Positions 1 through 64,000 of a stretch of 64,000 nucleotides of DNA are shown one piece after another. Below the pieces are notes generated by a model. It had not been told where the DNA came from. It saw only the letters and a program-made list of their open reading frames with translations, and searched no databases. Position numbers and translations under genes: made by a program. The stretch is from positions 768,001 through 832,000 of the forward strand of contig OX638340.1 in the NCBI GenBank assembly GCA_951812955.1, in the 5' to 3' direction. The stretch comes from an uncultured Gemmatimonadota bacterium. GTDB taxonomy: Bacteria; JAAXHH01. Position 1 is the first letter of the stretch, and each line of letters begins with the position of its first letter.

Positions 1-996
1 CAGATTTCCCCGAAGCAGCACCTACTGCCGCAGCGAATATGCTCAACCCCGTTGCTATAAGTTGCTTCTTCTTCTGATTCTGGTAAATTCGATAGCTATG
101 TCGTCTTTCTACGTGTGCGATTTCATGTGCCAGTACAGCTTCGATCTCCAGATCGCTCTCTGAAGATTCCAACAAACCTCGATTTACGTATACAAAACCA
201 GTTGGTACTGCGTACGCGTTGATCTCATCGTCTTCCATAACCGAGAATCGATAGTCGTAACCTTGTAGGGGTATAGGCCAGTGATCCAACACGCGTTTTC
301 CTATCTCCCTTGCCCGGGACTGAAGGTCATCATCAGTCGCCATCTGATTCGCACTCTGGATCACTTGCACTGAGTACAATCCAAGTACACGTTCAGTGGA
401 ATAGTCACTTACTAGTGGAGTCGATTTAAAACACAATGCACACGGGCGCATTCCCGTTTCTTCCGCTTCTTCAATTGAACCAAAAGGATGCTGCATGTCA
501 GGATGAGGTAAATGATTGCTGGACGCCACATGGTACATTTTACTATCAGTGTTTCCTATCAATACTTCATATTCAGTGGAATGTTCATCCAACCTGAAAC
601 ATAAAGCCAAACCCGTTTTAAATGCCTCCCGACCCATTACCGGTGAATGCAAGGGAGAAGAAAAACGAACCTGGCCCTTGCCCAGTCGAGTGCTTCTGAC
701 TTCTACTTCTATTCGGTCTTCCTTTGCCTTGATTGATCGAATCTCGATCGGTTCATCTTTGGGGATTCGGAACAGATTACGATAACGTCTAGAATGGGCG
801 TAATAATAGGTATTACCCTCGTGTTGATAGTAAGTCAGAGGATTTTGATGTATACTGCCTCTAAGTATTGCCTGACGTCCTTTTAATTCATTCTCTAGTT
901 CCTTTACCATCTTCGAGGATACTTTTTGTGCAAATAGGTCTTCAGAAGCCACGAGACAAATCACGATGCACATATACCGAACTAAATTGCGGTCCA
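1..996 (-). CDS. M48-family zinc metallopeptidase; N-terminal part only, the gene continues past the window start
   Basis: My own minus-strand translation gives MDRNLVRYMCIVICLVASEDLFAQ... with a signal-peptide-like N-terminus and HEIAHVERRH (HEXXH) encoded around 111-143. GGAGG lies 6 nt upstream of the ATG at 996..994. It is absent from the ORF track because there is no in-window stop. The segment is only about 45% GC against about 65% for the rest of the window. Confidence 0.7.
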
Positions 997-1092
997 TAAA
1001 CATCCTCCTAGTAGTAAGTTTGTAGTTGTGAATCACCTGTGCTATTACCATGTCCTGCTATTACCAAATTTCAGAAAGCTTGCTTTATTAGC

Positions 1093-2502
1093 TCAGCCTG
1101 ACTCGCTCCCATACTTCGCGTCCCCCACTTTCTCCTGAAGCCGCTTCAATTCCGCCTTCAACTGTGTAACCACTTCCGCGTAATCGGGATCCGCGTACAC
1201 GTTGTTTAGTTCGCAGGGATCCTTCTCCAGGTCGAACAGTTCCCACTCGGGCTCGGACTTCGGACCGATCGCGCCTTCCTGTCCGAGGGGGTCACCGTAA
1301 TAGTTGATCAGCTTGAACCGCAGGGTGCGGACGCCGTAGTGGGCGCAGACGTTGTGGTGGGCGCCGTGCATCCAGTACCGGTAGTACATGGACGTCTGCC
1401 ATTCATCCGGGGTCTCTCCCTGCAGGAGCGGCCGGAAGGAACAGCCCTGGAATGACTTCGGGATGTCCGCGCCTGCGCAATCCAGGAAGGTGGCGGGGAA
1501 GTCGACGTTCAGGATCATGTCTCCGTTCACCGTTCCCGGCGCCACCTCTCTGGGGTATCGGATCAGGAAGGGCATGCGCAGAGACTCCTCGTACATGAAC
1601 CGCTTGTCGTACCATCCGTGGTCTCCGAGGAAGAAACCCTGGTCCGACGTGTAGATCACGATGGTGTCCTCCGCGATCTCTTCTTCATCCATATAGTCCA
1701 GCAATCTGCCTACGTTGTCATCGATCGAGGCTATGCATCGCAGGTAGTCCTTGATATACCGCTGGTACTTCCAGCTTTTCTCTTCGGCGGGTGTCAGGCC
1801 TTCCGGTACAGGCACCTTCAGATCCTCCGCGGTGAGATCGCTTTCAACCCGCATCCGGGCGGCCGTGGCGGCCGCGGCCCGGTTCGAATAGTCGTCGTCG
1901 AAAGTCTCCGGCTCCGGGATGTCCTCGTCCTCATACATGTTCGCGTGCCGGTCGTCTGGCTCCCAGGACCTGTGCGGCGCCTTGTGATGAACCATGAGGC
2001 AGAAGGGACGGTCCCGGTCGCGGCCGCGTAGCCAGTCCAGGGAATAGTCCGTGATGAGATCGGTGGTGTACCCGCTTCGCTTCGTCCGTTCTCCCATTCT
2101 GATCATCTCGGGATCGTGATACAGGCCCTGGCCGGGCAGCACGTCCCAGAAGTCGAATCCGGTAGGATCGTGGATGCCTCCGTGGCCGAGATGCCACTTG
2201 CCTACCACCGCCGTCTGGTAACCCTGTTCCTGCAGCACCTTGGGATAATTCAGCAGGCGTCCGTCCAGGTGGGTGGACAGGGTGGTGACGCCGTTTACAT
2301 GGTTATACGTTCCCGTCAGGATAGCCGCACGGCTGGGCGTGCAGATGGAATTGGTGCAGAAGCAGTTGTCGAACCGCATCCCTTCGGCCGCGATGCGGTC
2401 GATATGGGGCGTCGCGTTGATCCTGCTGCCATAGGCGCTGATGGCGTGTGACGCGTGATCGTCGGCCATGATGAACAGGATGTTCGGGCGTGATTGGGGC
2501 AT
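1093..2502 (-). CDS. Cys-type sulfatase (arylsulfatase / N-sulfoglucosamine sulfohydrolase family); no signal peptide
   Basis: 469 aa. It carries the formylglycine motif C-T-P-S-R-A-A-I-L-T-G, and IMADDH near the N-terminus is a typical sulfatase metal-binding start. The catalytic domain begins directly after MPQSRPNILFIMADD. Confidence 0.85.
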   Translation of the reverse strand: MPQSRPNILFIMADDHASHAISAYGSRINATPHIDRIAAEGMRFDNCFCTNSICTPSRAAILTGTYNHVNGVTTLSTHLDGRLLNYPKVLQEQGYQTAVVGKWHLGHGGIHDPTGFDFWDVLPGQGLYHDPEMIRMGERTKRSGYTTDLITDYSLDWLRGRDRDRPFCLMVHHKAPHRSWEPDDRHANMYEDEDIPEPETFDDDYSNRAAAATAARMRVESDLTAEDLKVPVPEGLTPAEEKSWKYQRYIKDYLRCIASIDDNVGRLLDYMDEEEIAEDTIVIYTSDQGFFLGDHGWYDKRFMYEESLRMPFLIRYPREVAPGTVNGDMILNVDFPATFLDCAGADIPKSFQGCSFRPLLQGETPDEWQTSMYYRYWMHGAHHNVCAHYGVRTLRFKLINYYGDPLGQEGAIGPKSEPEWELFDLEKDPCELNNVYADPDYAEVVTQLKAELKRLQEKVGDAKYGSESG

Positions 2503-5506: not shown

Positions 5507-8464
5507 TCAGGGACGCAATGTCAACCTGTCACGGGCGCGCTTCAGCCAGTCTACCCCGCCAGCAGGTTCCATCTCCGACAGGAAACGGGAAGGCTGCTTC
5601 CGCTGTGTCGTAATGCAGAGCCTTTCTTCGGCCCGTGTCAGGGCGACGTAGAAAACGCGCCGCTCCTCCTCGATCTGCTCTTCTGAACCCGTCATGCGTC
5701 GGTGGGGCAGTATATCCTCGACCACGTGGAAGAGTATGACGCCCTTGAATTCGTCTCCCTTGCTCCGGTGAATCGTCGTGACTGTAATCCGGTCTTCGGC
5801 AGGCGATGTGTCGCTATGGGTTGCCGCAGGCTGCTCGCCGTCGCCTGCCGTTCCTCCATCATGTGCGTGGCCATCGACCGTTGCTTCCGGTTGCGCACTA
5901 TCTCGGGCTGTATCTCCCCGATATGCACTTTGTTCACCCCTTTCCGCCTGAGACGTGTCATAGCGGACGTATTCTTCAGGATCCGCGTCCGAACCGGAAG
6001 CCATGGACCTGAGATAAGCGCGAACGAACGAGTCCGTAGTCGGATATCTTGCGGCCATCTGCCTTATCATACCGATCGACTCCTCACCAGAAGCCGTCAT
6101 CCGCTGCCTGCTCGTCTCGTCCCTTTGCAGGTAGTAGGCGGCGAGCCCCGACTGATCCATCAACGTATCGAGGAAATCGACCGGAGGCACGCCCGGGGAC
6201 CCGTATACTTTGCGCAGGTTTTCGATGCATCCACGGTATTCATCGAGTTTGCCGTTTACGTCGCCCGGCAGACTGTCTATCCGCTCGAGGAAACGGGGAC
6301 CTAGCACCGCCGCTTCGCGCAGTCGGGCATTGGAGAGCAGCCGAGAAGGGAAGGACAGGCTAATCGCGTATGAAAGGGGATCGGCCTTTTCACCGTGTGC
6401 GACGACGTCGACATAAGCCCCCACGGTCCTTCCCACGTGGGTCTGGTACAGGGCGCCTTCATCGAGTGGATGGAAGGGCAGGTCCGCTTCCTTTAGAGCG
6501 GATTGAAGGGGCGACGCGATGGACTGGACGCGGACCAGGACGGCCATGTCCCTGAAGGCGTACCCCAGCTTGCCCCACCGGTGTATCGTGCGTACCACGG
6601 CATCTGTTTCGGCTTCCATAGACGGACATTTGTGGACCCGGATTGTGTTTCTGTCCGAACCAACCTGTACCGGACGGATTGGCTTGTCGAAACGGTTCGC
6701 GTTATGGGAAATGACGCTGGCGGATTGGGTTACGATTTCCGGTCCGCATCGGTAATTCGCCCCCAGGGTGTGGACCGCAGCGCCGGGATACCACCGCTGA
6801 AACGAGCGGATATTCTCCGGATCCGCGCCGGTGAAGGTATTGATCATCTGGTCGTCATCGCCCACGGCAAACAGGTTGTTCAGCGGCAGGGAGAGCAGTC
6901 TCAGCATCAGGAACTGCACGGGGGTCAGGTCCTGGACCTCGTCCACCAGGACCGAATCGAAGCGATGCTGATATACGGTTCGCGCCCGGGGAGCTGAAAG
7001 AAGGATTTCCACGGCGCGGAATAACTGCTCGTCGAAGGTCATCAGGGCCTTGTCGCTCATGCTGCGTTCCACTTCTTCGCGCATTCTGAGGACCTGGCGC
7101 CTATCAAAGTCCTCAGTTCCCTCGCACGCGCCATATTCATCGATGGGCATCAACGTTCTCCGGTACCTGGAGACCGCCTCCTCGTACGCAATGACGAGAT
7201 GCTCAGGAAAGGGATAGGGGATGGCCGGGAAGTGCCGCTTGAAATCCTCCTTCAGCGCTTTTCTGTATATATCCGTCAACCCACCTGGCAGCGACTGTCC
7301 CGTAACGACGCCATAGTCCGCGTAGGGACTCTCCGGCGCCTGTCTGCAGATCTCGAAACCCAGGCTGTGCAGCGTCCGGATATGCACGTCCGGCAGTCCG
7401 GCATCCCCGTGTATACGCTCTGCCATCACCTCGCTCGCCGCCTTGTTGAAAACCACGCAGAGAATCCGGCCGGGGCGGACGCCGCCCCGCACGGCTTCAA
7501 CCACCCGCCGTGTCAGCACCCGCGTCTTTCCCGAGCCCGCGGGCGCCAGGGTGAGCACCACGCCGGCGCGAGGATCCAGACACCTGGCCTGTTCTCCGGC
7601 CAGACCGGGGTTCGGCTCAGGCATCGGAAGTACGGTTCCGCGGCCGTTGCCGGCCAGATTCGAACGGACCCGTTCTATACATCCGTCGAGATCGTGTACG
7701 ACCTCGCTCCCATTGAACCGGATCACATCCCGAATGTTATGTGCTCGAGTCAGTTCCTTGTCCCACGTGGTGCGGTCGGCGCGGACAAACTCCCTGCCGT
7801 CGACCTCCACGGCCACGAAACTGCCGCGTGAGTCGTCAACAAGCAGATCGACGAAACACGAGCCGAACGGGGCATGTAGCTCGTGGGACAAGCCGGCCCG
7901 GGCAAGCCCCTCGTGCATCTTCCTCTCGACGGGCGTCAACCAGGGTTCTGCCGATGAATTAAACGCATCGGGAGTCGGAAACACGGCACAGGTGCAAGCC
8001 AGGAGGAACCGCAATTGTTCTCTCAGGAGAGGTGACATCGTATCTTCGATCTCGTCCTTATCCGGCATGCCGACCGAACCGGTGTCCAGATCCTGAAGAT
8101 CCCAGGACGCGAACAGATACAGGGGTATGTATCGCCTGTACGCCGGAAGGACGAGGAGGTTTACCAGGCTGTTCATATGGGCCAAGTGCCTGGACGTCAA
8201 TTTGAGGATCAGGCGATCGGGTTCACCCCGCACTTCCTGGCCTTCCTCCGGATCGCTCATTACGGCCGTGCCCGGACGGGACTCGATTTCGGGCATGGAG
8301 TATTCACCAGGACACCGGAATACCGCGAGTCCGCGGCCCTTCTGTTCCCGCAGAGGTACTTCGCCCGGAACGAGCTGGACCGAACCAACGGCCGAACCGC
8401 AGACCGGATGTTGTTCCGCCGATCGGGTCTCTTCTGCCGATAGAACTTCGTCCGTAGATGGCAT
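5507..8464 (-). CDS. UvrD/Rep-like SF1 DNA helicase with an N-terminal DUF559 (Vsr-like, PD-(D/E)XK-fold) nuclease domain
   Basis: 985 aa. Helicase motifs: Walker A LAPAGSGKT, Walker B VLVDEVQD, motif III FAVGDDDQ, motif VI TIHRSKGDEFK / VALTRAEERL. Residues about 200-275, FVDLLVDDSRGSFVAVEVDGREF...RDVIRFNGSEVVHD, fit the DUF559 pattern. An acidic low-complexity insert precedes motif VI. The true start may lie downstream of 8464. Confidence 0.75.
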   Translation of the reverse strand: MPSTDEVLSAEETRSAEQHPVCGSAVGSVQLVPGEVPLREQKGRGLAVFRCPGEYSMPEIESRPGTAVMSDPEEGQEVRGEPDRLILKLTSRHLAHMNSLVNLLVLPAYRRYIPLYLFASWDLQDLDTGSVGMPDKDEIEDTMSPLLREQLRFLLACTCAVFPTPDAFNSSAEPWLTPVERKMHEGLARAGLSHELHAPFGSCFVDLLVDDSRGSFVAVEVDGREFVRADRTTWDKELTRAHNIRDVIRFNGSEVVHDLDGCIERVRSNLAGNGRGTVLPMPEPNPGLAGEQARCLDPRAGVVLTLAPAGSGKTRVLTRRVVEAVRGGVRPGRILCVVFNKAASEVMAERIHGDAGLPDVHIRTLHSLGFEICRQAPESPYADYGVVTGQSLPGGLTDIYRKALKEDFKRHFPAIPYPFPEHLVIAYEEAVSRYRRTLMPIDEYGACEGTEDFDRRQVLRMREEVERSMSDKALMTFDEQLFRAVEILLSAPRARTVYQHRFDSVLVDEVQDLTPVQFLMLRLLSLPLNNLFAVGDDDQMINTFTGADPENIRSFQRWYPGAAVHTLGANYRCGPEIVTQSASVISHNANRFDKPIRPVQVGSDRNTIRVHKCPSMEAETDAVVRTIHRWGKLGYAFRDMAVLVRVQSIASPLQSALKEADLPFHPLDEGALYQTHVGRTVGAYVDVVAHGEKADPLSYAISLSFPSRLLSNARLREAAVLGPRFLERIDSLPGDVNGKLDEYRGCIENLRKVYGSPGVPPVDFLDTLMDQSGLAAYYLQRDETSRQRMTASGEESIGMIRQMAARYPTTDSFVRAYLRSMASGSDADPEEYVRYDTSQAERGEQSAYRGDTARDSAQPEATVDGHAHDGGTAGDGEQPAATHSDTSPAEDRITVTTIHRSKGDEFKGVILFHVVEDILPHRRMTGSEEQIEEERRVFYVALTRAEERLCITTQRKQPSRFLSEMEPAGGVDWLKRARDRLTLRP

Positions 8465-49537: not shown

Positions 49538-50653
49538 ATGGGCAGGGTCAGGGTGCTGGTAGGCACTCGTAAAGGGGCGTTTATCCTCTCAGCGGATGGG
49601 AACCGTAGAGACTGGGAAATCGACGGGCCTCATTTTGGAGGTTGGGAGGTCTATCACATCAATGGATCCAGGGTCAATCCTGATCGCCTTTACGCAGCCC
49701 AGGCCACCGGCTGGTTCGGCCAGTTGGTGCAGAAATCGGACGACGGGGGTAAAAGCTGGAACCCGGTGAGCAACAAATTCGCCTTCGAGGGAGAGGTGGG
49801 CACTCACCTTGATTTCGACGACACCCCCCGTCCCTGGGGATTCAAGCGGGTCTGGCACTTCGAATCTTCGCTTTCCGATCCGGACACCGTGTACGCGGGC
49901 GTCGAGGACGCGGCGCTCTTCCGCTCGACGGACGGGGGCCAGTCCTGGCTGGAACTCGCCGGCCTGAGAAACCACCCGTCTAGCACGGGCTGGCATCCCG
50001 GTGCGGGCGGCCTTTGCCTGCACACCATTCTACTGGACCGGGGCGACCCGAATCGGTTGATCGTAGCTATTTCCGTGGCCGGTGCCTTCCGTTCCCTGGA
50101 CGGCGGCTTTTCCTGGCAACCGATCAACCAGGGCCTGCATTCCGACTACATGCCTGAACCCGATGCCGAGGTGGGTCACTGCGTCCATCGGCTCGCGATG
50201 CATCCAATCCGACCGGACTTGCTGTTCATGCAGAGCCACAGGAACATCATGCGCAGCGACAACGGGGGAGATTCCTGGAGCAATGTGAGCGGCAACCTGC
50301 CCAGCGATTTCGGATTCCCGATCAGTGTGCACGCCCACGAACCCGAAACGGTCTATGTCGTCCCGATGAAGAGCGATTCCGAGCACTATCCGGATGAAGG
50401 CCACCTGCGCGTCTACCGGAGCCGGACCGGCGGTAACGAATGGGAGCCGCTGTCGTCCGGACTGCCGCAGAAAGACTGCTACGTCAATGTCCTCAGGGAT
50501 GCCATGGACGTGGATACGCTCGATGACTGCGGGGTATACTTTGGAACTTCCGGGGGAGCGGTCTACGTTTCCCCAGACGGTGGAGATCACTGGACGGCCA
50601 TCACGCAGAATCTGCCTCCGGTGATGTCCGTCCAGGTCCAGACGCTCCCATGA
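49538..50653 (+). CDS. BNR/Asp-box repeat beta-propeller protein (Ycf48-like or sialidase-like fold), cytoplasmic
   Basis: There are four clear Asp-boxes: [24 protein letters not shown] and SPDGGDHW. I see no signal peptide. Confidence 0.7.
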
Positions 50654-50952
50654 TACGCGTCGTTCTGCCCCATCACCTGCGGAACCTGGCGGGATGCCGG
50701 GACAGGGAAGTCATCCTGCAGGTCGCCGGCGGGATCGTGACCCAGCGCAAGATCCTGGACGCGCTCGAAGCACGCTTTCCCCAACTCGGCGGTACGGTCC
50801 GGGACTACGAGACCGGTGCTCGCCGGCCTCTTGTGCGGTTTTTCGGCTGCGGAATGGACCTCTCCCTCGAATCACCCGACGCACCGGTGCCCGACACCAT
50901 TTCACGGGGCGAGGAGCCCTACCGGATCGTGGGTTCGGTCGCCGGGGGGTAG
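50650..50952 (+). CDS. MoaD/ThiS/CysO-family ubiquitin-like beta-grasp protein ending in Gly-Gly
   Basis: 100 aa. The [11 protein letters not shown]...start resembles MoaD/CysO, and the C-terminus is ...RIVGSVAGG-stop. The ATGA overlap with the BNR gene indicates translational coupling. Confidence 0.6.
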
Positions 50953-50960
50953 CCCTGGCC

Positions 50961-53315
50961 CTATTTCAACATTTTCACGATTTCATCATGCCCGGCTTTC
51001 TGCGCACGCGCAAACGGCGTAGCCCATTCCGCGCCCCCGGCACTGGGATCCGCGCCTCGTCCAAGCAGGAACTCCACCATGTCCCGGTGCCCCCAGCGCG
51101 CAGCCCATCCAAGCGGCGTCGAGCACCACTCGTCATCGATGGCTTCAATGGCCGCGCCGCGATCCAGCAACAGGGCGGCCTTTTCCACGTCACCGATCGC
51201 GGCCAGCTTGTGCAGGTAGGTGACGCCGTGCCAGTTGGCGTTATTGGGATCAGCCCCGCTGTCAAAAAACAGGTTCAGCATGTCCAGGATATCGTCATGC
51301 GGTCGCAAGGCGGCTCCGTCCAGTTTCCAGCCCTTTCGCCGTCTGAAGGCGTATCCCATGTAGTTGTTGGCGTACCACGGACGGTTCAGTTCGGCGCCAG
51401 CGCGGATCAGCATTTCGATAATCTCCTTGCGGGCGAATCCGGCTGCCATGCAAAGCACCCCGTAGTCGCCTCCGTAATTGGCCAGTCCTGGGTCCGCGCC
51501 GAGCAGTTCTCCAACGACCGGAATGTTATCTCTTAAAACGTACAAACCAATATCTGCCGTTGCACCGTGCTGATAGAGCAGGTTGATCATTTCCTCATTT
51601 TTGTCCCGTCCCAGTGCCTGGGTCAATGGATTGCCGCTCGACTCCACCGGCGCATTCGGGTCGGCTCCGCGTTCCAGCAGGAGTTTTGCGGTCTCGAGGT
51701 GATCGCCGGCTACGGCTTCGTACAACGCGTGACCGCGAGGCGCGTTGTACTCTGGCGCGTTGGGATCGGCCCCTTGGTCCAGCAGAAGTCGAACGATATC
51801 GGTATACCCCTGCCCCGCCGCGCTGTAGAGGGGGGAGAACCCGCAGGAATCCTGGTCGCTGACCAGGTTGCTGTCCCGCGCGAGCAGTTCCCGTACTCGC
51901 CGTTCGTCCCCCAGGGCACACGCGACGGTCATGCTGTATTCCGCTCCCCTCGCGACCAGGTATCCAGTCAGCAGCGGATTGGTCCGCCCCTGGGTTTTGC
52001 GGGCTCGAAACACGGCCAGGTGAAGGGGTTTGCATCTATCCCACCTTACCGGATCCGGTTCGGCCCCCAAATCCAACAGCAGGGCCGTCATTCCCAGGTT
52101 GTATTCTTCCACGGCCACGTGCAGCGGCCGACTGCCGCGTTCGTCGCCGGCGTTAACCAATTCCGGCGAGGCATTAAAAAACGCACGGGCCTCTTCCAGA
52201 TCGCCCTCCCGAACGATCTCGCAGGCGCGCTGGCCTACAGGGGGCGCTTCGTACCTGTTTGAAATCGCCTCCGTCAACAGTCCGGCGATCTCGTCGTATC
52301 CGCGGTCCCGGGCCCGATCCAGCGGCGGCACGTGGTATTCGAGTCCCGATGCCGAGGCGGGATCCGCGCCATGGTCGAGCAACAGGCGTACTGCTTCCGC
52401 ATGCCCTTCCCTGACAGCGAAGTGGAGCGGCTGGTAGTAAGCCCAGTTGCAGTTCGCCAGCCCCGGCTCTTTAAGCAACAGATCCTGGATCCTGGCCAGG
52501 TCTCCTTCAACCGCGGCCAACAGCATGTCCCATACCCTATCTGGCTTGCCATCCATGAAAAGACCTTGCTCGTTCGTGAAATCGGGTCGAATCCATTTCA
52601 TAACTCGGTCTCCGAATGCATCGTCCGTCGACGGCGCGTAATGATTGAGGTCCTGGTAAAGGACGCGGAAAAGACGGGGTTTCAGTTTGTTGCGGGCTTC
52701 GTAGAGCCGCTTGCGTACCGTGCCCGCTTTCAAACCCATGAACCCCGCGATTTCAGTCGGGGAATAGTCTCCAATATACCTCAGCAGCGTTACTTCTCTT
52801 AACGTCTCCGGCAGTGCTTCGACCGCCTCGCGGACCTTGTCGCTCAGGTCTTCGCGCGTAACCCGGTCCAGGGGACTTTCCCCGGTGGCCTGTAGTTTGT
52901 CCTCCATGGGCACAAGTACGTGGTTCTGACTTCTCCGGTACCGATAGCACTGCCATTGCACGATGCGTCGCAGCCAGGCCGGAAACGCGTCCGGTTCACG
53001 CAGCGACCGGATGTTCTGCCACGCGGCGACAAACCCTTCCTGCGTGGCGTCCTCCGCCAGGTGGCGTTCACCCAGGAGGCTTAGCGCGTAACCGAAAGCC
53101 ATGTCCTGATAGTAAGCCACCAGCTTGCCGAAGGCGAATCCTCGATCTGAATCGGGTACCGTGGCGTCCGTGGAGGCCTGTATGCATTTTAAAATATCGT
53201 TGGTCATCGTCTGCCGTTGGGTTTCACCTGCAGCATCATTAATTAGTGAAATTCGTATTAAACTAGTACCATAAATCCTACCAGACGTTACAAATAGTTG
53301 ATAGATTGACACCAC
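50961..53315 (-). CDS. ECF-type sigma-70 factor fused to a roughly 550 aa ankyrin-repeat C-terminal extension
   Basis: Sigma region 2 is DSDRGFAFGKLVAYYQDMAFGYAL...EDATQEGFVAAWQNIRSL. Region 4 is LREVTLLRYIGDYSPTEIAGFMGLKAGTVRKRLYEARNKL. After that come at least 8 ankyrin repeats (PLHFAVREGHAEAVRLLLDHGADP, SPLYSAAGQGYTDIVRLLLDQGADPNA, TPLGWAARWGHRDMVEFLLGRGADP and others). The likely start is MTNDILK at 53207. Confidence 0.75.
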   Translation of the reverse strand: MVSIYQLFVTSGRIYGTSLIRISLINDAAGETQRQTMTNDILKCIQASTDATVPDSDRGFAFGKLVAYYQDMAFGYALSLLGERHLAEDATQEGFVAAWQNIRSLREPDAFPAWLRRIVQWQCYRYRRSQNHVLVPMEDKLQATGESPLDRVTREDLSDKVREAVEALPETLREVTLLRYIGDYSPTEIAGFMGLKAGTVRKRLYEARNKLKPRLFRVLYQDLNHYAPSTDDAFGDRVMKWIRPDFTNEQGLFMDGKPDRVWDMLLAAVEGDLARIQDLLLKEPGLANCNWAYYQPLHFAVREGHAEAVRLLLDHGADPASASGLEYHVPPLDRARDRGYDEIAGLLTEAISNRYEAPPVGQRACEIVREGDLEEARAFFNASPELVNAGDERGSRPLHVAVEEYNLGMTALLLDLGAEPDPVRWDRCKPLHLAVFRARKTQGRTNPLLTGYLVARGAEYSMTVACALGDERRVRELLARDSNLVSDQDSCGFSPLYSAAGQGYTDIVRLLLDQGADPNAPEYNAPRGHALYEAVAGDHLETAKLLLERGADPNAPVESSGNPLTQALGRDKNEEMINLLYQHGATADIGLYVLRDNIPVVGELLGADPGLANYGGDYGVLCMAAGFARKEIIEMLIRAGAELNRPWYANNYMGYAFRRRKGWKLDGAALRPHDDILDMLNLFFDSGADPNNANWHGVTYLHKLAAIGDVEKAALLLDRGAAIEAIDDEWCSTPLGWAARWGHRDMVEFLLGRGADPSAGGAEWATPFARAQKAGHDEIVKMLK

Positions 53316-53431: not shown

Positions 53432-53803
53432 ATGACCGACCTGAAAGTAAGCGCGCTCAGGGTTTTTGTCCCATCTAAGGACCACGAAACTTCGACCCGG
53501 TTCTACGAGGACCTCGGATTCGAAGCGGTCTGGTCCGGCCATGGGGTGACTGAGCTGCGGATTGAAGGATTCAGCTTTTTCCTTCAGAACTACTATCAGA
53601 AGGAATGGGCGGATAACTTCATGATACAGTTAAGGGTATCGGACCTGGATGCGTGGTGGCGGCACATCGTGGATAAGGATCTCGTGGCGCGATATGAGGG
53701 CGTCCGTGCCGCGGAGCCCAGGGTCCAGCCGTGGGGGCTTCGCGAGATCAACCTGATCGATCCCGCCGGCGTACTGTGGCACATCGCCGAAGAGCGGGAC
53801 TGA
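53432..53803 (+). CDS. VOC-family (glyoxalase/bleomycin-resistance-like) protein
   Basis: 123 aa with a single VOC module. Confidence 0.6.
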   Translation: MTDLKVSALRVFVPSKDHETSTRFYEDLGFEAVWSGHGVTELRIEGFSFFLQNYYQKEWADNFMIQLRVSDLDAWWRHIVDKDLVARYEGVRAAEPRVQPWGLREINLIDPAGVLWHIAEERD

Positions 53804-55976: not shown

Positions 55977-58488
55977 TTACCGGGGTCCTCGCACCGCCGT
56001 GGAATCTATCGCTTTAGAACCGGGCGTGGAGGCGCCGCCGAACAGACTGAGCCGGCCCGAGATCGCGGCTTCCACGTCCAGGTCGTAAACCTGGGAAATG
56101 GTGGTAACGATGGGACGGATCTGCTTTTCAATGTAATGACCGTAATCAACGGGCGCGTCAAGCTGGCCTTCCGGTTGAGGTCCGTCTCGCGTGATCACGT
56201 ACCGAATGACGCCGGTGGGATTGTCCATGAGTCTGGCGGCCTTTACGTGGGGCGGTACCGAGCGCGTGTAGAACTCCACCGGTTTTCGCAGGTTCTTTCT
56301 GTACACCAGCAGGTCGTCTTTTTGCCCGGACTGTACAGAGAGGACCCACCTGAAGATCTCGTCTTCGATCTCGACACCGGGCGATTCGTGAAATACCCGG
56401 TCGAGCAGGACGGCCTGCAGCTGGTGCGCCAGGTCGGTCCAGTCCCTTCGTACTGCTTCCATCCCGACGATTTCCACCCGGTCGCCATCGCGGTCGCGTC
56501 TGAGCCCCGCGTATCCCTTGGCCCGTCCCCGTTCGCTGTCCCCCCGCATGGATGGCAACAGAAACCGGTGGTAGTGCTTTTCCAGTTCCAGTTCGAGAAA
56601 AGAGGAAACGCCATACCGCTCCTTGACGTGCTCGGCAAGCCGTTCGTTGATACGATTGCACACCGCGCCACCGAGCCTAAGGGCTTCACCCGGATCGGCA
56701 AGGTCTGGCGCGTTCAGATCGACGAAAACCGAGTCGGTATCCCCATACAGCACCTTGTAGCCGTCTTTCTCCAGCTCGTCGCGACACCACCTTAGAATGT
56801 AGTGGCCGAACTCGGTGATTGCGCCGGCCAGCTGGGGCGCGGCGAATCGGCAGGAAGCCGACGCCAGCACGCCGTAGAACGAATTCATGACGATCTTGTA
56901 GGTGAAGGAAGCAAGGTCGTCGCCGCTGGCCTTGGCCTCCTCGCGGCTTTTAAAGAACTGCTCCAGCATGGAGGGCAGGATGCCGGGCGTTCGGGTGAAT
57001 CGCGCGCCGTTGGGCGCGGTAAGACAGTCATCTTCGTCCATCTCGTCCCGTGCCTCGATATGGGCCAGGGGATCGATGTTGAAGGTTCGTATGATGGACG
57101 GATAAAGGCTCTTGAAATCAAAGACGAATATGTTCCTGTACAGCCCTGCCTTCGACGGTATGATGAGCCCCCCCGGCGCGCCGGCGCCCGGGGTACGGTC
57201 CACGCCGGTTGTCGGCGCCACCATGCTGCGCTGATGCAGGGCGTTGATGTAGATATTGTCGAAGGCGGCCACGCTCACCCAGGCGCGTTCCAGTGGCAGG
57301 CCCGTGAGCAGTCCCCTGCGCAAGGTAAGGTTGATCAACCCTTCCGCTTCCAGGATATCCAGAACCAGCCGGGCATCCTCCAGGCAATAGGCGCAGAAGA
57401 GGTTACGGTCCTCGCGATAGACTTCCGTGATCTGCTCCGCCCTCGAATTCCCCGAATCCTCTTCGAGCAGCTTACCCCGGCCCAGGATGGCGTGGGCCAC
57501 CGTGCCCAGCCGGTAGTCATCGAACCTTTGCAGCGTGCCGCGCAGGAGATGCAGGGCATCCAGGATCTGGCGCCCGTGGATGACCATGGTGCTGCCGCCC
57601 CAAACTTCGCCGGACCGGTACCAGGACTGGTCCGCCGTCCGCCCGAGCTGAAAAGGCACGTTCAGGTCCCTGAAGCGCCGTTGCAGCACTTTCATATCGA
57701 AGTCGACCAGGTTCCATCCGGTGAGCAGGTCGGGATCCATTTCGAGCAACCTCGCCGACACACCGCGAAGCATCGACGCCTCGTCGGCCCAGCAGACCAG
57801 GGAGGCCGGGTCACCCGGAGCGGGTGCGCCCACCATGTGGATTTCTTCCGATTCGACGCCCGAGATCGTATCCGCGAGGATCAAGCCGACGGCGTAAATG
57901 GTGGTCGCTTTCGGATCCGTTTCTATGTCCAGAGCCAGTACGCGGAATGACGGCTCCCAGTAAGCAGGCTTCAGCGTAGGGTTGGCATACACTCGGTCGA
58001 CCCGGTCGCCGGGCGTCCAGGAACCGCTGATCCGGACGCCGCCGCGCAATCCAAGTCCGATCAGGAACTGTCTGCCGAAAGGCAGGTCGCCTTCGTAACT
58101 TCGCGTGCCCTGGGCCTCGAGCCCTTTGGCCAGGCCGCGCTGATCCCGTACGCGGTCGCACTGGACGCCGACCACCGGTTCGCCATCCATGGTTGTGTAT
58201 TCCGACGGGACTAACCGTGCCGTGACCTCGTTGGAACCGATCCGGTCGGATGCCGCCTGCGTTTCCGAGGTCCTGACGAAGAGTGCAGGAGAAACGCGAT
58301 CATCCGTAAACAGGAACGTATGACCACCCTGGAGCTTGCCGACGCCGCAGATGACGTCACGTCCGCGCTCCGTGCGATGAAAGACGTGGAGCAGGTAGCC
58401 TACGTCTCCTCCGCCATCCGGGGATTCGTGCTGATCCGCGGGGTCACTGGACGGAAGTGAGCGATCCCTGCCGGGGTTGTGTTCAGTT

Positions 58489-58502
<14 letters not shown>
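55977..58502 (-). CDS. polB: Family B DNA polymerase (DNA polymerase II)
   Basis: Exo I is LALDIETD. Motif A is [15 protein letters not shown], motif B is [13 protein letters not shown] and motif C is [11 protein letters not shown]. These are near-identical to the E. coli Pol II motifs. The start overlaps the uvrA stop by 14 nt. Confidence 0.9.
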
Positions 58503-61446
<2,944 letters not shown>

Positions 61447-62763: not shown

Positions 62764-64000
62764 GTGACCTTCACGCCCAATGGACCGCATTCTTCCGCCG
62801 TGCATGCCGTTCTGCGCCATCGGGGCGGCCTCGCCCCGGAGCTGAGGCCCGATCCGACGCTCTTCCAACGAGTCGGGGGCCGATCCGTGATCGCGAAGGT
62901 AATCGACGGGCTGTACGACCGGATCGAAGTAGATTCCGACCTGCGTCCGATGTTTACCCGGACATTGGCTCCGGAACGTATGAAACAGAAAGCCTTCCTC
63001 GAAGAATGGATGGGAGAAGAACCGGGCTATACCCATCATCACGCCTACGGCGGAATCAAAAACCGCCACGGGCATATTCACATCACGCCGGAATCCGCGG
63101 AACGGTGGCTGGCGCACATGACCGATGCGTTGCTCGAGCATGTGAGGGATGACCGGCTCGTGAACGAAGCGCTGGCCACCCTCGGTCCCCTCGCCCGCGG
63201 ACTCGTCAACGAGAAGAAGCCACCAGAAAGCCCCGGACAACTCAGATGCTTCAGGGAAAAACGATGGAGACAGCCGGCCAAAATGGCGGCCAGGGGACAG
63301 ATGGAAGCACTCGAGAACTTTCTCGAGGAGGATTCCACGGTATTGGGCGATCCTCGTCACAGCGCAATCATCCTCGCGGAAGCGGCGCTGAGGGGCCATA
63401 CGCGGGTCGCGGCCCTGCTGCTTGACCGGGGGGTGGACGTAAACATACCATCTGCCCATTCGAGCGATATCATGATGACCGCCTATTGTGCCGCGCGAAG
63501 CAAGAGAAAAGACGAAACGGCCGGTTACCTGGCGGACCGCGGCGCGGTGTACGATGTCTTCAGCGCCTGTTTTCTCGGAGACATGGACCGGGTTGCCGTC
63601 CTGCTCGAAGCCCATCCCGGCCTGGTCAACGCAAGCGACCCCGCCTGCGACCTGTTGCCCGTGACCCCGTTGCACCATGCCGTGTACGGCGGCCATGAAC
63701 CCGTCGCCAGGTTCCTCTTTGAACGTGGCGCGGAGACCGGCGTGAACAGCACAGCCCTGTTGAAATACGCGGCGGAACGGGGACAGGCGAGCCTGGTCCG
63801 GTTGTTGCTGGCACACGGGGCGGATGCTTCGAGGATCGGTTGCGGCCGCTGGGTCGTCGATCCCGAGATCTCCGCGCTCCTGCTCGCCCGCGGCGCGGAC
63901 GTGAACTATCCCGATGGGAATTGGGTCTGGACGGCATGCACGGGAAACAACAGCCAGCGGGACGACCCCGCCTACGTGCAGGCACTGCTGGACAAGGGGG
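62764..64000 (+). CDS. Truncated hemoglobin (2/2 Hb, Bac_globin) fused to ankyrin repeats; C-terminus lies beyond the window end
   Basis: My own translation from GTG 62764 (GAGGA 7 nt upstream, in-frame TAG at 62731) gives ...LFQRVGGRSVIAKVIDGLYDRIEVDSDLRPMF...HAYGGIKNRHGHIHITPESAERWLAHMTDALLEH, which fits the trHb pattern. Then come the ankyrin repeats TPLHHAVYGGHEPVARFLFERGAET, LLLAHGADAS and LLLARGADVN. It is not in the ORF track because there is no in-window stop. Confidence 0.7.
   Translation, partial: MTFTPNGPHSSAVHAVLRHRGGLAPELRPDPTLFQRVGGRSVIAKVIDGLYDRIEVDSDLRPMFTRTLAPERMKQKAFLEEWMGEEPGYTHHHAYGGIKNRHGHIHITPESAERWLAHMTDALLEHVRDDRLVNEALATLGPLARGLVNEKKPPESPGQLRCFREKRWRQPAKMAARGQMEALENFLEEDSTVLGDPRHSAIILAEAALRGHTRVAALLLDRGVDVNIPSAHSSDIMMTAYCAARSKRKDETAGYLADRGAVYDVFSACFLGDMDRVAVLLEAHPGLVNASDPACDLLPVTPLHHAVYGGHEPVARFLFERGAETGVNSTALLKYAAERGQASLVRLLLAHGADASRIGCGRWVVDPEISALLLARGADVNYPDGNWVWTACTGNNSQRDDPAYVQALLDKG

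What the first reader, a model, noticed from the sequence alone, without database searches (positions are those of the whole stretch)
50961..53315. ECF sigma factor with a roughly 550 aa ankyrin-repeat C-terminal extension
Clear sigma-2 and sigma-4 regions are fused in one ORF to eight or more ankyrin repeats. No separate anti-sigma gene is adjacent. C-terminal extensions of ECF sigmas (SnoaL-like, TPR and others) can act as built-in regulators. I do not know of an ankyrin-repeat extension being described, so it could be a new fused anti-sigma or partner-docking module. A second ankyrin fusion, to a globin, lies 10 kb away (62764..), which hints at a shared ankyrin-mediated signalling logic.
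Basis: partly seen in the sequence, partly recalled or inferred. Interest (0 to 1): 0.6.

Follow-up and report, generated by a model that had tools for sequence, protein, structure and literature searches.

The report
ECF sigma factor fused to ankyrin
This is a real, widely conserved gene for a stress-type sigma factor joined to a long ankyrin-repeat protein-binding module; it is one branch of a large sigma-factor clade that is fused to many different C-terminal domains, so it is an interesting uncharacterised variant of a known theme, not a new kind of system.

Summary
One uninterrupted minus-strand gene encodes an ECF sigma core (sigma-2 and sigma-4, no sigma-3) followed by about 545 aa of ankyrin repeats. 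The true start is ATG 53207 (748 aa), not GTG 53315. There is no anti-sigma gene and no transmembrane segment. The fusion is conserved from 33 to 93% identity in at least eight phyla. The ankyrin half is under stronger purifying selection than the sigma half. A bipartite ECF-type promoter (TTGTAAC-N17-GTACTA, 53264-53293) is conserved upstream of all seven orthologues examined and in distant relatives, which predicts autoregulation. It is the only strong site in the 64-kb window. The sigma core belongs to a very large clade (5,459 representative clusters) with a conserved post-sigma-4 linker and more than 50 different C-terminal Pfam families; ankyrin is the commonest. A syntenic orthologue lacks the sigma part, starts exactly at Met203, and is still under selection, so the ankyrin module works on its own and is not merely an anti-sigma domain. 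Prior art exists: sigma+Ank_2 architectures are listed for cyanobacteria, ECF+WD40 and ECF+TPR are known, and a "sigma cassette captures a downstream gene" model is published. No link to the globin-ankyrin gene was found. Verdict: new variant of a known kind, moderate interest.

The parts
50961..53207 (-). Corrected coding sequence of the sigma-ankyrin protein (748 aa plus stop codon). Starts at ATG 53207.
   Evidence: ORF. The homologues' N-termini and their 747-749 aa lengths fix the start.
53208..53315 (-). Upstream part of the mechanical ORF (GTG 53315). This is most likely a 5' leader and promoter, not coding sequence.
   Evidence: No homologue extends into it. It contains the conserved promoter.
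53287..53293 (-). Predicted -35 element TTGTAAC. The GTAAC starts 84 nt upstream of the ATG.
   Evidence: GTAAC is invariant in 7 of 7 orthologous upstream regions, including the non-syntenic loci L088 and L089. Related motifs occur in distant clade members.
53264..53270 (-). Predicted -10-like element GGTACTA, placed 16-17 nt after GTAAC.
   Evidence: The spacing is fixed and the consensus among orthologues is gG.ACT.a. It is the only site in the window scoring at least 14 bits; Markov controls average 0.65 sites. It scores 22.2, against 12.6 for the next best site.
52923..53123 (-). Sigma region 2 (residues 29-95 of the 748-aa protein).
   Evidence: Pfam Sigma70_r2, E = 1.1e-14. Invariant residues A51, D53, Q56, F59, F75 and W78 in the family alignment.
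52680..52841 (-). Sigma region 4 (residues 123-176).
   Evidence: Pfam Sigma70_r4_2, E = 6.1e-12. Invariant residues Y144, V164, R167 and R172.
52548..52679 (-). Post-sigma-4 linker (residues 177-220), carrying the clade-wide motif (A/R)PS.D..F...V...I.P.
   Evidence: P192, S193, F198 and P208 are (nearly) invariant. The motif is conserved across the 96 clade representatives whatever the C-terminal domain. The AlphaFold model has low pLDDT at residues 209-217.
52599..52601 (-). Met203 codon. The naturally sigma-less orthologue starts at this residue. GGAG lies 8 nt upstream.
   Evidence: BLASTP aligns P0018 residue 1 to Met203. The upstream sequence is shown. An internal start here is only a hypothesis.
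50964..52547 (-). Ankyrin solenoid module (residues 221-748), with about 16 helix-pair repeats in four blocks.
   Evidence: Pfam Ank families. AlphaFold pLDDT is mostly 80-97. Foldseek matches ankyrin-1/B, DARPins and tankyrase. dN/dS is 0.08-0.125.
53432..53803 (+). Divergently transcribed glyoxalase-family gene that shares the intergenic region. This is context, not shown to be a target.
   Evidence: Pfam Glyoxalase. The gene is conserved in L087, L090 and L091.

Best explanation
The gene encodes a soluble cytoplasmic ECF-type sigma factor that carries its sensory or partner-binding module in the same polypeptide.

Shown:
- It has an intact sigma-2/sigma-4 core of ECF type, a conserved about 40-aa linker, and a roughly 16-repeat ankyrin solenoid.
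- There is no anti-sigma gene and no transmembrane segment.
- Both halves are under purifying selection and diverge together.
- A conserved ECF-type promoter (TTGTAAC-N17-GTACTA) sits upstream of the gene itself in every orthologue.
- The sigma core belongs to a very large clade that is joined, always just after the same linker, to more than 50 different C-terminal domain families. Ankyrin is the most frequent.
- The ankyrin module also exists, and is maintained, without the sigma part.

Inferred:
- The sigma part directs RNA polymerase to its own promoter (positive autoregulation) and to unidentified targets elsewhere in the genome.
- The ankyrin solenoid is an autonomous protein-binding scaffold. 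Its occupancy by a cellular partner, or its packing against sigma-2/sigma-4 or the linker, decides whether the sigma core can engage RNA polymerase core. This would resemble the 'activated by protein interaction' model proposed for ECF42 (TPR) and ECF57 (WD40).
- The fusion arose when a sigma-2/sigma-4+linker cassette with its own promoter joined a pre-existing ankyrin gene. It has since been retained in many lineages and lost in some.
For: Architecture and authenticity.

No anti-sigma gene in the window or in nine related loci.

No transmembrane segment (maximum Kyte-Doolittle value 1.24).

Selection: dN/dS is 0.12-0.22 for the sigma core and 0.08-0.125 for the ankyrin module.

Co-divergence of the two halves: r = 0.77, Mantel test 0 of 999 permutations.

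Promoter:
- One TTGTAAC-N17-G.ACT site lies 71-104 nt upstream of the ATG in 7 of 7 orthologues, including two non-syntenic loci.
- A matrix built from these seven sites finds related sites upstream of distant clade members in 13 of 56 loci, against 4% of 505 control windows.
- It is the only strong site in the window, 22.2 bits against 12.6 for the next best.
- The site is absent from the sigma-less locus L092.

Clade with swappable C-termini:
- Fusions confirmed in single ORFs and above Pfam cut-offs.
- 5,459 representative clusters at E<=1e-30, with the sigma domain always at residues about 1-200 of proteins 210-968 aa long.
- 52 Pfam families among 96 representatives, Ank in 32 of the 96.

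Autonomy of the ankyrin module.

Precedents for regulatory repeat extensions: PMC8999054.
Against: - No experiment and no structural contact data link the ankyrin module to sigma activity. The prediction tool returned no inter-domain error map, the pTM of 0.68 is dominated by the solenoid, and the linker has low confidence.
- The ankyrin module is kept without sigma, so regulating sigma cannot be its only function. The coupling could be weak or absent.
- Among distant pairs the sigma and ankyrin identities correlate only weakly (r = 0.16).
- No second promoter site was found nearby, so the regulon is unknown.
- The promoter is inferred from conservation alone.
- The published view of similar fusions is that they arise fortuitously (PMC7671368).
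Confidence: 0.45

Rival explanations
1. Passenger fusion. A duplicating sigma-2/sigma-4 cassette happened to land in front of an ankyrin gene. Both parts keep their separate jobs: an ordinary autoregulated sigma, and an ankyrin scaffold acting elsewhere. There is no regulatory coupling between them, and the fusion persists because it is harmless and gives the ankyrin protein a promoter.
For: - The published 'duplicate and capture' model for planctomycetal ECFs (PMC7671368).
- The clade carries more than 50 unrelated C-terminal families, including enzymes such as citrate synthase and PheRS.
- Ank-only relatives occur in at least five places in the ankyrin-module tree.
- The sigma-less syntenic orthologue is still under selection.
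Against: - The same fusion is kept from 33 to 93% identity in at least eight phyla.
- The linker motif is conserved, the junction is fixed, and the two halves diverge together.
- A 60-kDa appendage on sigma-4 with no effect on holoenzyme formation would be surprising (inference).
- All studied ECF extensions do affect activity (PMC8999054).
Confidence: 0.25
2. Output module, not input. The sigma part brings the protein to RNA polymerase and its promoters. The ankyrin solenoid then recruits other proteins there, such as repair or remodelling factors, or tethers the holoenzyme to a cellular structure.
For: - Long ankyrin solenoids are scaffolds for several partners (fold matches to ankyrin-1/B and tankyrase).
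- In close relatives the gene sits in a DNA-repair-rich neighbourhood: PolB, a UvrA-like gene, HhH-GPD and DinB.
Against: - That synteny disappears at 60-65% identity.
- No partner gene is conserved.
- There is no precedent among ECF sigma factors.
- Stand-alone ankyrin homologues exist in unrelated genomic contexts.
Confidence: 0.12
3. Proteolytically processed precursor, analogous to NF-kB p105. The ankyrin half masks the sigma half in cis until cleavage in the linker releases an active sigma. A variant of this idea is that an internal start at Met203 produces free ankyrin protein that acts in trans on the sigma part.
For: - The low-confidence linker (residues 209-217) is a plausible cleavage site.
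- GGAG lies 8 nt before the Met203 codon, and the sigma-less orthologue begins exactly there.
- 'Activated by proteolysis' is a recognised class of ECF extensions (PMC8999054).
- The NF-kB p105/IkB analogy comes from general knowledge.
Against: - No protease gene is associated with the locus.
- The GGAG is simply the Gly-Asp codons of a conserved motif.
- No data on protein products exist.
Confidence: 0.1
4. Eukaryote-like effector. The protein is an ankyrin-repeat protein used by a host-associated (for example sponge-associated) bacterium to manipulate a eukaryotic host, and the sigma-like part is incidental.
For: Several relatives come from Poribacteria and from metagenome bins whose names suggest sponge or marine sources. 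Ankyrin proteins are known to be enriched in such symbionts (general knowledge).
Against: - The protein has no signal peptide or transmembrane segment.
- The sigma core is intact and under selection.
- The gene has an autoregulatory bacterial promoter.
- The family also occurs in soil and groundwater Acidobacteriota and Chloroflexota, and the ankyrin module alone in Paenibacillus.
Confidence: 0.03

Closest known systems
ECF42 sigma factors (C-terminal TPR extension, e.g. Streptomyces venezuelae Sven_0747)
   Same: - Sigma-2/sigma-4 core followed by an alpha-helical repeat (protein-interaction) extension.
- No anti-sigma factor.
- The extension is proposed to control activity by binding another protein (PMC8999054).
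   Different: - ECF42 has about 200 aa of TPR; this protein has about 545 aa of ankyrin repeats.
- The conserved YCII-domain neighbour of ECF42 is absent here.
- No ECF42-specific model was available to test the sigma core.
ECF57 (formerly ECF01-Gob), planctomycetal multi-copy ECFs with WD40-like C-terminal extensions
   Same: - Long repeat-type C-terminal extensions and no anti-sigma factor.
- Several paralogues per genome (L089 and L090 each carry a second sigma-Ank gene).
- A conserved cysteine in sigma-2 (Cys87 here).
   Different: - The repeats are ankyrin, not WD40. WD40 was not among the 25 most frequent of the 52 families in 96 clade representatives.
- Only one conserved cysteine was found, not the two described for ECF57.
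- The family spans at least eight phyla, not mainly Planctomycetes.
- Group assignment could not be tested.
Planctomycetal ECF group with captured, unrelated C-terminal extensions (Pinto & da Fonseca 2020, PMC7671368)
   Same: - A conserved sigma-2/sigma-4 core with C-terminal extensions of unrelated origin, size and Pfam content.
- Little conservation of genomic context. This is the same pattern found here for the clade around the window's sigma.
   Different: - The sigma-ankyrin fusion is not a recent accident. It is conserved across phyla, with both halves under purifying selection.
- The clade here extends far beyond Planctomycetes and shares a linker motif and a promoter motif. Neither motif appears in the sections of that paper read here.
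- Whether the two clades are the same could not be tested.
Sigma70-family proteins with an Ank_2 accessory domain in cyanobacteria (BMC Genomics 2024, PMC11119718)
   Same: A sigma r2/r4_2 core with Ank_2 at a terminus, catalogued as a domain architecture.
   Different: That work is only a census in 361 cyanobacterial genomes, with no functional or evolutionary analysis of the ankyrin fusions. Homology to the 748-aa family here was not tested.
ECF41 (SigJ type, SnoaL-like extension)
   Same: A single-polypeptide ECF whose C-terminal domain contacts the sigma-2/sigma-4 linker and both inhibits and enables activity. It is the best-studied example of regulation in cis (PMC8999054).
   Different: ECF41 has a small ligand-binding-type SnoaL domain of about 100 aa, and the sigma core belongs to a different group. 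There is no SnoaL domain here.
NF-kB p105/p100 and IkB (eukaryotic; analogy only, from general knowledge)
   Same: An N-terminal DNA-binding transcription factor followed by C-terminal ankyrin repeats that mask it in cis until processing. The ankyrin part also exists as a separate protein (IkB).
   Different: There is no homology beyond the ankyrin repeats, it is a eukaryotic system, and there is no evidence here for processing.

Membership tests
ECF (group 4) sigma-70 family | [quoted passage not shown] | tested here: met
   Pfam Sigma70_r2 scores 54.4 bits (cut-off 24) and Sigma70_r4_2 scores 45.4 bits (cut-off 25.7). TIGR02937 scores 86 bits (cut-off 42.9). The core aligns with SigW, SigE and SigH structures over residues 24-180.
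ECF (group 4) sigma-70 family | Sigma-1.1 and sigma-3 are absent, and the sigma-2/sigma-4 linker is short (under 50 aa). | tested here: met
   No Sigma70_r3 or r1 hit at E<=0.01. Sigma-2 ends at residue 95 and sigma-4 starts at 123, a gap of 27 aa.
ECF (group 4) sigma-70 family | A cognate anti-sigma factor is encoded next to the sigma gene (typical but not universal). | tested here: not met
   The neighbours are a glyoxalase, HhH-GPD, a 100-aa ORF and a BNR protein. No anti-sigma Pfam family appears in nine related loci.
ECF (group 4) sigma-70 family | The gene has its own bipartite ECF-type promoter (autoregulation). | tested here: met
   This is an in-silico result only. TTGTAAC-N17-G.ACT occurs in 7 of 7 orthologues, is enriched upstream of distant clade members, and is unique in the window.
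ECFs with regulatory C-terminal extensions (general class) | A conserved extension longer than 50 aa after sigma-4, with no anti-sigma factor. | tested here: met
   The roughly 545-aa extension is conserved down to 33% identity, and no anti-sigma gene was found (see the anti-sigma row).
ECFs with regulatory C-terminal extensions (general class) | The extension modulates sigma activity. | not testable with these tools
   This needs truncation and reporter assays or contact data. The structure tool gave no inter-domain error map.
ECF42 | A TPR-rich extension of about 200 aa and a conserved YCII-domain neighbour. | tested here: not met
   The extension is made of ankyrin repeats, with no TPR hit. 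No YCII-domain gene is present in any locus.
ECF41 | A SnoaL-like C-terminal domain. | tested here: not met
   No SnoaL hit.
ECF57 | Variable, repeat-rich (WD40-like) extensions, with several copies per genome. | tested here: inconclusive
   The clade has variable extensions and paralogues. However, the dominant repeat is ankyrin, and WD40 was not among the 25 most frequent of the 52 families found.
ECF57 | Two conserved cysteines that link sigma-2 and sigma-4. | tested here: not met
   Only one nearly invariant cysteine was found (Cys87 in sigma-2), and none in sigma-4.
ECF57 or any other ECF Hub group | The sigma core scores above threshold with the group's HMM. | not testable with these tools
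   The ECF Hub models are not available and the supplement of PMC7826278 is not held. No NCBIfam subfamily or equivalog model reached its cut-off.
Planctomycetal 'duplicate and capture' ECF group (PMC7671368) | A conserved sigma-2/sigma-4 core with unrelated C-terminal extensions and no conserved genomic context. | tested here: met
   Met for the clade around this sigma, and synteny is lost at 60-65% identity. Whether this is the same clade as in the paper could not be tested, because no accession list is held.
MzaA (sigma-like protein of the MZA anti-phage system) | A score at or above the NF041931 cut-off of 800 bits, or a PADLOC MzaA hit. | tested here: not met
   The score is 66 bits and its best-scoring stretch (713-784 of the 784-aa ORF) lies in the ankyrin repeats. 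PADLOC returns only generic ankyrin models.

The most novel reading that the evidence does not exclude
The sigma-2/sigma-4 core, its conserved linker and its own autoregulated promoter form a portable 'transcription output cassette'. This cassette has been joined dozens of times, in at least eight phyla, to pre-existing cytoplasmic proteins: ankyrin scaffolds most often, but also the SecA motor, ATP-synthase-like ATPases, FliG/FliM, T2SS E/F domains, PheRS, citrate synthase, and Rho RNA-binding domains.

On this reading, each fusion turns the state of the captured protein (partner-bound, assembled or substrate-bound) into a sigma-factor signal. That would make a general, evolvable family of one-component sigma sensors. 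The sigma-ankyrin protein would be its most successful member, possibly with a free ankyrin product made from Met203 acting as a competitor.
Probability: 0.2. Interest if true: 0.7.

Novelty: new variant of a known kind. Interest (0 to 1): 0.42.

Why it matters
ECF sigma factors with built-in extensions act as single-protein signalling devices, and they are of interest as orthogonal switches. Only the SnoaL, TPR and Cys-rich types have been studied.

An ankyrin-type extension would add a large, engineerable protein-binding receptor to that list. This work supplies concrete material for testing it:
- a corrected gene model;
- a predicted target promoter;
- a natural sigma-less control orthologue;
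- the exact junction (Met203).

The wider observation is that one ECF clade, with a shared linker and promoter, is fused to more than 50 kinds of domains, with ankyrin the most common. This extends a published planctomycetal phenomenon to many phyla. It also asks whether such fusions are accidents or a general way of building sensors.

Tried and rejected
1. Mis-join or artefact: rejected. The identical architecture occurs in more than 80 homologues and in seven independently assembled loci.
2. A split sigma / anti-sigma-like pair in organisms with the stand-alone ankyrin homologue: rejected. The Paenibacillus loci have no sigma gene nearby.
3. Relationship to the MZA defence protein MzaA: rejected (66 bits against a cut-off of 800; PADLOC returns only generic ankyrin models).
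4. Fold search of the full model against the PDB: only generic ankyrin solenoids came back, so it gave no functional lead.
5. Regulatory link to the globin-ankyrin gene: no promoter motif upstream, low similarity between the ankyrin parts, and no linkage in more distant orthologues.
6. Local regulon: no second strong promoter site in the window or in the syntenic loci.
7. Checking the ECF Hub catalogue: not possible. The supplements of PMC7826278 and PMC7671368 are not held, and PMC7286433 is not held.
8. Deletion scar in the sigma-less locus: only suggestive. A 12-of-13 nt remnant of the linker codons survives, and the rest of the 64-nt spacer aligns poorly.
9. Inter-domain packing from AlphaFold: cannot be judged, because no coordinates or PAE were returned.
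Full report
OBSERVATION

The minus-strand ORF 50961..53315 exists and is uninterrupted: 784 aa from a GTG start. Pfam finds Sigma70_r2, Sigma70_r4_2 and Sigma70_r4, followed by five ankyrin families running to the C-terminus. There is no sigma-3 hit. NCBIfam places the protein only in the ECF superfamily model TIGR02937 (86 bits, cut-off 43). No subfamily or equivalog model reaches its cut-off. The sigma part aligns over its full length with solved ECF sigma factors: SigW 5WUQ (5.9e-16), SigE and SigH.

The real start is almost certainly ATG 53207 (MTNDILK...), giving 748 aa. The close homologues are 747-749 aa long and begin at that residue.

The AlphaFold2 model has mean pLDDT 83.4 and pTM 0.68. 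It shows sigma-2, a disordered sigma-2/sigma-4 linker (residues 95-111), sigma-4, a partly low-confidence linker (residues 209-217), and about 16 helix-pair repeats. The repeats fall into four blocks, each opening with a 'GD..RV..LL...P.L.N' pseudo-repeat. Foldseek returns only generic long ankyrin solenoids. The maximum 19-residue hydropathy is 1.24, so there is no membrane segment.

The window holds exactly one ECF-like ORF and two ankyrin ORFs.

IS THE FUSION REAL AND CONSERVED?

Yes. Of the 120 best hits among 5.8 billion proteins, more than 80 have the same sigma+Ank architecture at 33-93% identity. They are labelled Gemmatimonadetes, Acidobacteriota, Planctomycetota and Poribacteria. A scan of species-representative genomes adds KSB1, Chloroflexota (Anaerolineae, Caldilineaceae, Phototrophicaceae), Zixibacteria and a verrucomicrobial genome.

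The closest named relative is a 'Gemmatimonadetes bacterium' MAG at 79% identity, so the window is probably gemmatimonadotal.

Seven orthologous loci carry the intact gene. Against those orthologues, dN/dS is 0.12-0.22 for the sigma core and 0.08-0.125 for the ankyrin module. The ankyrin half is therefore the more constrained. Pairwise identities of the two halves correlate across the family (r = 0.77, Mantel 0 of 999). Among distant pairs alone the correlation is weak (r = 0.16).

CONTEXT

Relatives at 78-84% identity share the window's gene order: UvrA-like, PolB, DUF1801/OmdA, glyoxalase, HhH-GPD, a divergent glyoxalase, sigma-Ank, a 100-aa ORF, BNR protein, glyoxalase, DinB, PhyH.

The slot directly downstream of sigma-Ank varies between genomes:
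- empty in the window (an 8-bp gap);
- an ankyrin-only gene of 251 or 324 aa in L085, L087 and L091;
- a second, convergent sigma-Ank paralogue of 609 aa in L090.

At 60-65% identity the synteny is gone (L088, L089). L089 carries another sigma-Ank paralogue of 482 aa. No anti-sigma-type Pfam family appears in any of these loci.

PROMOTER

Each of the seven orthologous upstream regions contains exactly one TGTAAC (GGTAAC in L087), 71-104 nt before the ATG. It is followed after a fixed spacer by a G.ACT element. This holds even for the two non-syntenic loci. In the window the site is TTGTAAC (53293-53287) ... GGTACTA (53270-53264).

Three tests support it:
- A weight matrix finds this as the only site scoring at least 14 bits on both strands of the 64-kb window. 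Markov-shuffled controls average 0.65 sites. It scores 22.2 bits, against 12.6 for the next best site.
- A matrix built only from the seven close orthologues recovers a related motif, G(T/G)AAC(C)TTT ... GG(G/C)(A/T)CTTT, upstream of distant clade members. These include non-ankyrin fusions such as the sigma-Pol-beta gene of L020. 13 of 56 loci score at least 10, against 4% of 505 control windows.
- The sigma-less locus L092 lacks the site.

This is the signature of an autoregulated ECF promoter. It is inferred from conservation and has not been demonstrated experimentally. No other candidate target lies in the window or in the syntenic loci. The best score upstream of the globin-ankyrin gene is 4.6.

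THE WIDER CLADE

The sigma genes most similar to this one in other genomes (35-43% identity over the core plus linker) sit in single ORFs of 190-964 aa. Their C-terminal parts differ widely:
- ankyrin arrays of several lengths;
- ankyrin plus an ATP-synthase alpha/beta-like ATPase;
- that ATPase alone;
- TPR;
- a bifunctional-nuclease domain;
- a Pol-beta nucleotidyltransferase;
- GNAT;
- a SecA motor (E = 2.7e-93);
- several extensions with no Pfam match.

Searching with the sigma core plus linker only (no ankyrin in the query) gave 2,367 proteins at E<=1e-10. These carried T2SSF, T2SSE, FliG_C, PheRS, HEAT, glyoxalase, receiver, radical-SAM and Rho RNA-binding fusions. Re-scanning representatives confirmed that these hits exceed Pfam's cut-offs and that the junction always lies at about residues 197-228.

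An exhaustive profile search of 1.84 billion representatives found 5,459 clusters at E<=1e-30. In the best 150, the sigma domain occupies residues about 1-200 of proteins 210-968 aa long. Among 96 of them, 52 Pfam families follow the sigma core:
- ankyrin in 32;
- FliG_C in 8;
- BFN_dom in 4;
- GNAT in 4;
- FliM in 3;
- T2SSF in 3;
- one complete citrate synthase (E = 1.7e-126).

Because the profile came from ankyrin-bearing members, the ankyrin share may be inflated. The linker motif (R/A)PS.D..F...V and a cysteine in sigma-2 are nearly invariant across these 96 proteins.

THE ANKYRIN MODULE STANDS ALONE

Proteins of 525-640 aa consisting only of the homologous ankyrin module (40-46% identity over the whole module) occur in Paenibacillus, with no sigma gene nearby.

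More telling is the case of L092/L093. The very slot that holds sigma-Ank in the window (HhH-GPD, X, 100-aa ORF, BNR) holds there a 556-aa ankyrin-only orthologue that is 81% identical. It starts at a Met that aligns exactly with Met203 of the fusion, inside the conserved linker. The 64-nt spacer upstream keeps GGAGACCGGGTT, a 12-of-13 match to the Gly-Asp-Arg-Val codons that precede Met203. This suggests that the divergent glyoxalase gene, the promoter and sigma codons 1 to about 197 were deleted secondarily. The orthologue is still under purifying selection (dN/dS 0.10-0.14).

In a neighbour-joining tree of the module, ankyrin-only and fused proteins intermix in at least five places. Two caveats apply: the tree has no support values, and some ankyrin-only entries could be truncated gene calls.

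The module therefore has a function that does not need the sigma part. This argues against its being simply a dedicated anti-sigma domain.

MECHANISM

The best-supported reading is a one-polypeptide ECF system. The sigma part autoregulates from TTGTAAC-N17-GTACTA and drives unknown targets elsewhere. The ankyrin solenoid is a protein-binding receptor whose state gates the sigma core. This matches the 'activated by protein interaction' model proposed for ECF42 (TPR) and ECF57 (WD40) (PMC8999054).

What is shown:
- the architecture;
- conservation and selection on both halves;
- the absence of an anti-sigma gene;
- the conserved promoter;
- membership of the clade with swappable C-termini;
- the autonomy of the ankyrin module.

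What is inferred:
- that the sigma part is active;
- that the promoter is its own target;
- that the ankyrin part controls it.

Rival readings are a passenger fusion without coupling (PMC7671368), an output or recruitment role, a processed precursor or internal-start product, and a host-directed effector. The last of these is poorly supported.

COMPARISON WITH WHAT IS KNOWN, AND NOVELTY

The main texts of the ECF re-classification (PMC7826278), the ECF evolution paper (PMC7671368) and the review of non-canonical ECFs (PMC8999054) do not mention ankyrin. Their supplements are not held.

However, several pieces of prior art exist:
- A 2024 census of cyanobacterial sigma70-family proteins lists Ank_2 as 5.6% of terminal accessory domains (PMC11119718).
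- ECF + WD40 fusions in Gemmataceae are described (PMC11119718 aside, see PMC11032199 and PMC8567305).
- Pinto & da Fonseca describe a planctomycetal ECF group whose minimal sigma-2/sigma-4 unit duplicates and captures downstream sequence as unrelated extensions.

The finding is therefore a new, uncharacterised variant (an ankyrin extension) of a known kind (ECFs with C-terminal extensions). It sits in a clade whose promiscuous fusions are partly published.

What appears to be new here:
- the cross-phylum conservation of this particular fusion and the strong constraint on it;
- the shared linker and promoter motifs of the clade;
- the dominance of ankyrin among the fusion partners;
- the natural sigma-less orthologue that defines the junction.

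Interest is moderate.

Noticed in passing
Loci L017, L020, L021, L024, L033, L034; proteins P0130, P0134, P0147, P0153, P0206, P0226; alignment A6: ECF sigma genes of the same clade are fused in single ORFs to very different domains. These include a SecA motor, ATP-synthase alpha/beta-like ATPases, a bifunctional nuclease, Pol-beta NTase, GNAT, FliG_C/FliM, T2SSE/T2SSF, the PheRS core, the Rho RNA-binding domain and a complete citrate synthase. The junction always falls right after the conserved linker. There are 5,459 representative clusters at E<=1e-30. The pattern resembles the planctomycetal capture phenomenon of PMC7671368 but spans many phyla.
   Followed up: partly
window 62764-64000 (+), runs off the window end: A truncated-haemoglobin (Bac_globin, residues 32-144) fused to ankyrin repeats. 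Full-length orthologues of 538-562 aa lie next to PolB in L085, L086 and L092. It has no sigma-Ank promoter motif upstream, and its ankyrin part is only 31% identical to that of sigma-Ank.
   Followed up: partly
L092/L093 5001-6671, compared with window 50961-52601: A naturally sigma-less orthologue (556 aa, 81% identical) sits in the same syntenic slot. It starts at the residue equivalent to Met203 and is still under purifying selection. A probable remnant of the linker codons survives upstream.
   Followed up: yes
window 52599-52615 (-): GGAG lies 8 nt upstream of the Met203 codon. An internal translation start yielding a free ankyrin module is conceivable. However, the GGAG is also just the Gly-Asp codons of the conserved motif.
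   Followed up: no
L085 10273-11028; L087 10277-11251; L091 8277-9251; L090 8353-10182; L089 932-2380: The position just downstream of the 748-aa gene varies among close relatives. It holds an extra ankyrin-only gene (251 or 324 aa, 26-30 bp downstream on the same strand) or a second sigma-Ank paralogue (609 aa). In the window the slot is empty. L089 has a further 482-aa sigma-Ank paralogue.
   Followed up: partly
window 50650-50952 (+) and 49538-50653 (+): A 100-aa ORF with no Pfam hit ends in Gly-Gly. Its start overlaps the stop of the upstream BNR/Sortilin-like gene by 4 nt. The pair is conserved in all syntenic loci. The Gly-Gly terminus recalls ThiS/MoaD-type small proteins, but this was not tested.
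   Followed up: no
window 55977-58502 (-) and 58489-61446 (-): A family-B DNA polymerase gene overlaps the end of a 985-aa ORF. In the syntenic loci that ORF is UvrA-like (UvrA_inter, UvrA_DNA-bind, ABC_tran). Together with HhH-GPD, DinB and several glyoxalase genes, they form a cluster rich in repair and detoxification genes. A second ORF of exactly 985 aa lies at 5507-8464 (-).
   Followed up: no
proteins P0027, P0046, P0056, P0085 (alignment A1, columns about 955-1067): A sub-family of sigma-Ank proteins (about 840-864 aa) carries an extra conserved C-terminal domain of about 100 aa after the last ankyrin repeat. It has no Pfam match.
   Followed up: no
window 1-2000: G+C is 51% in the first 2 kb, against 56-63% in the rest of the window.
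   Followed up: no
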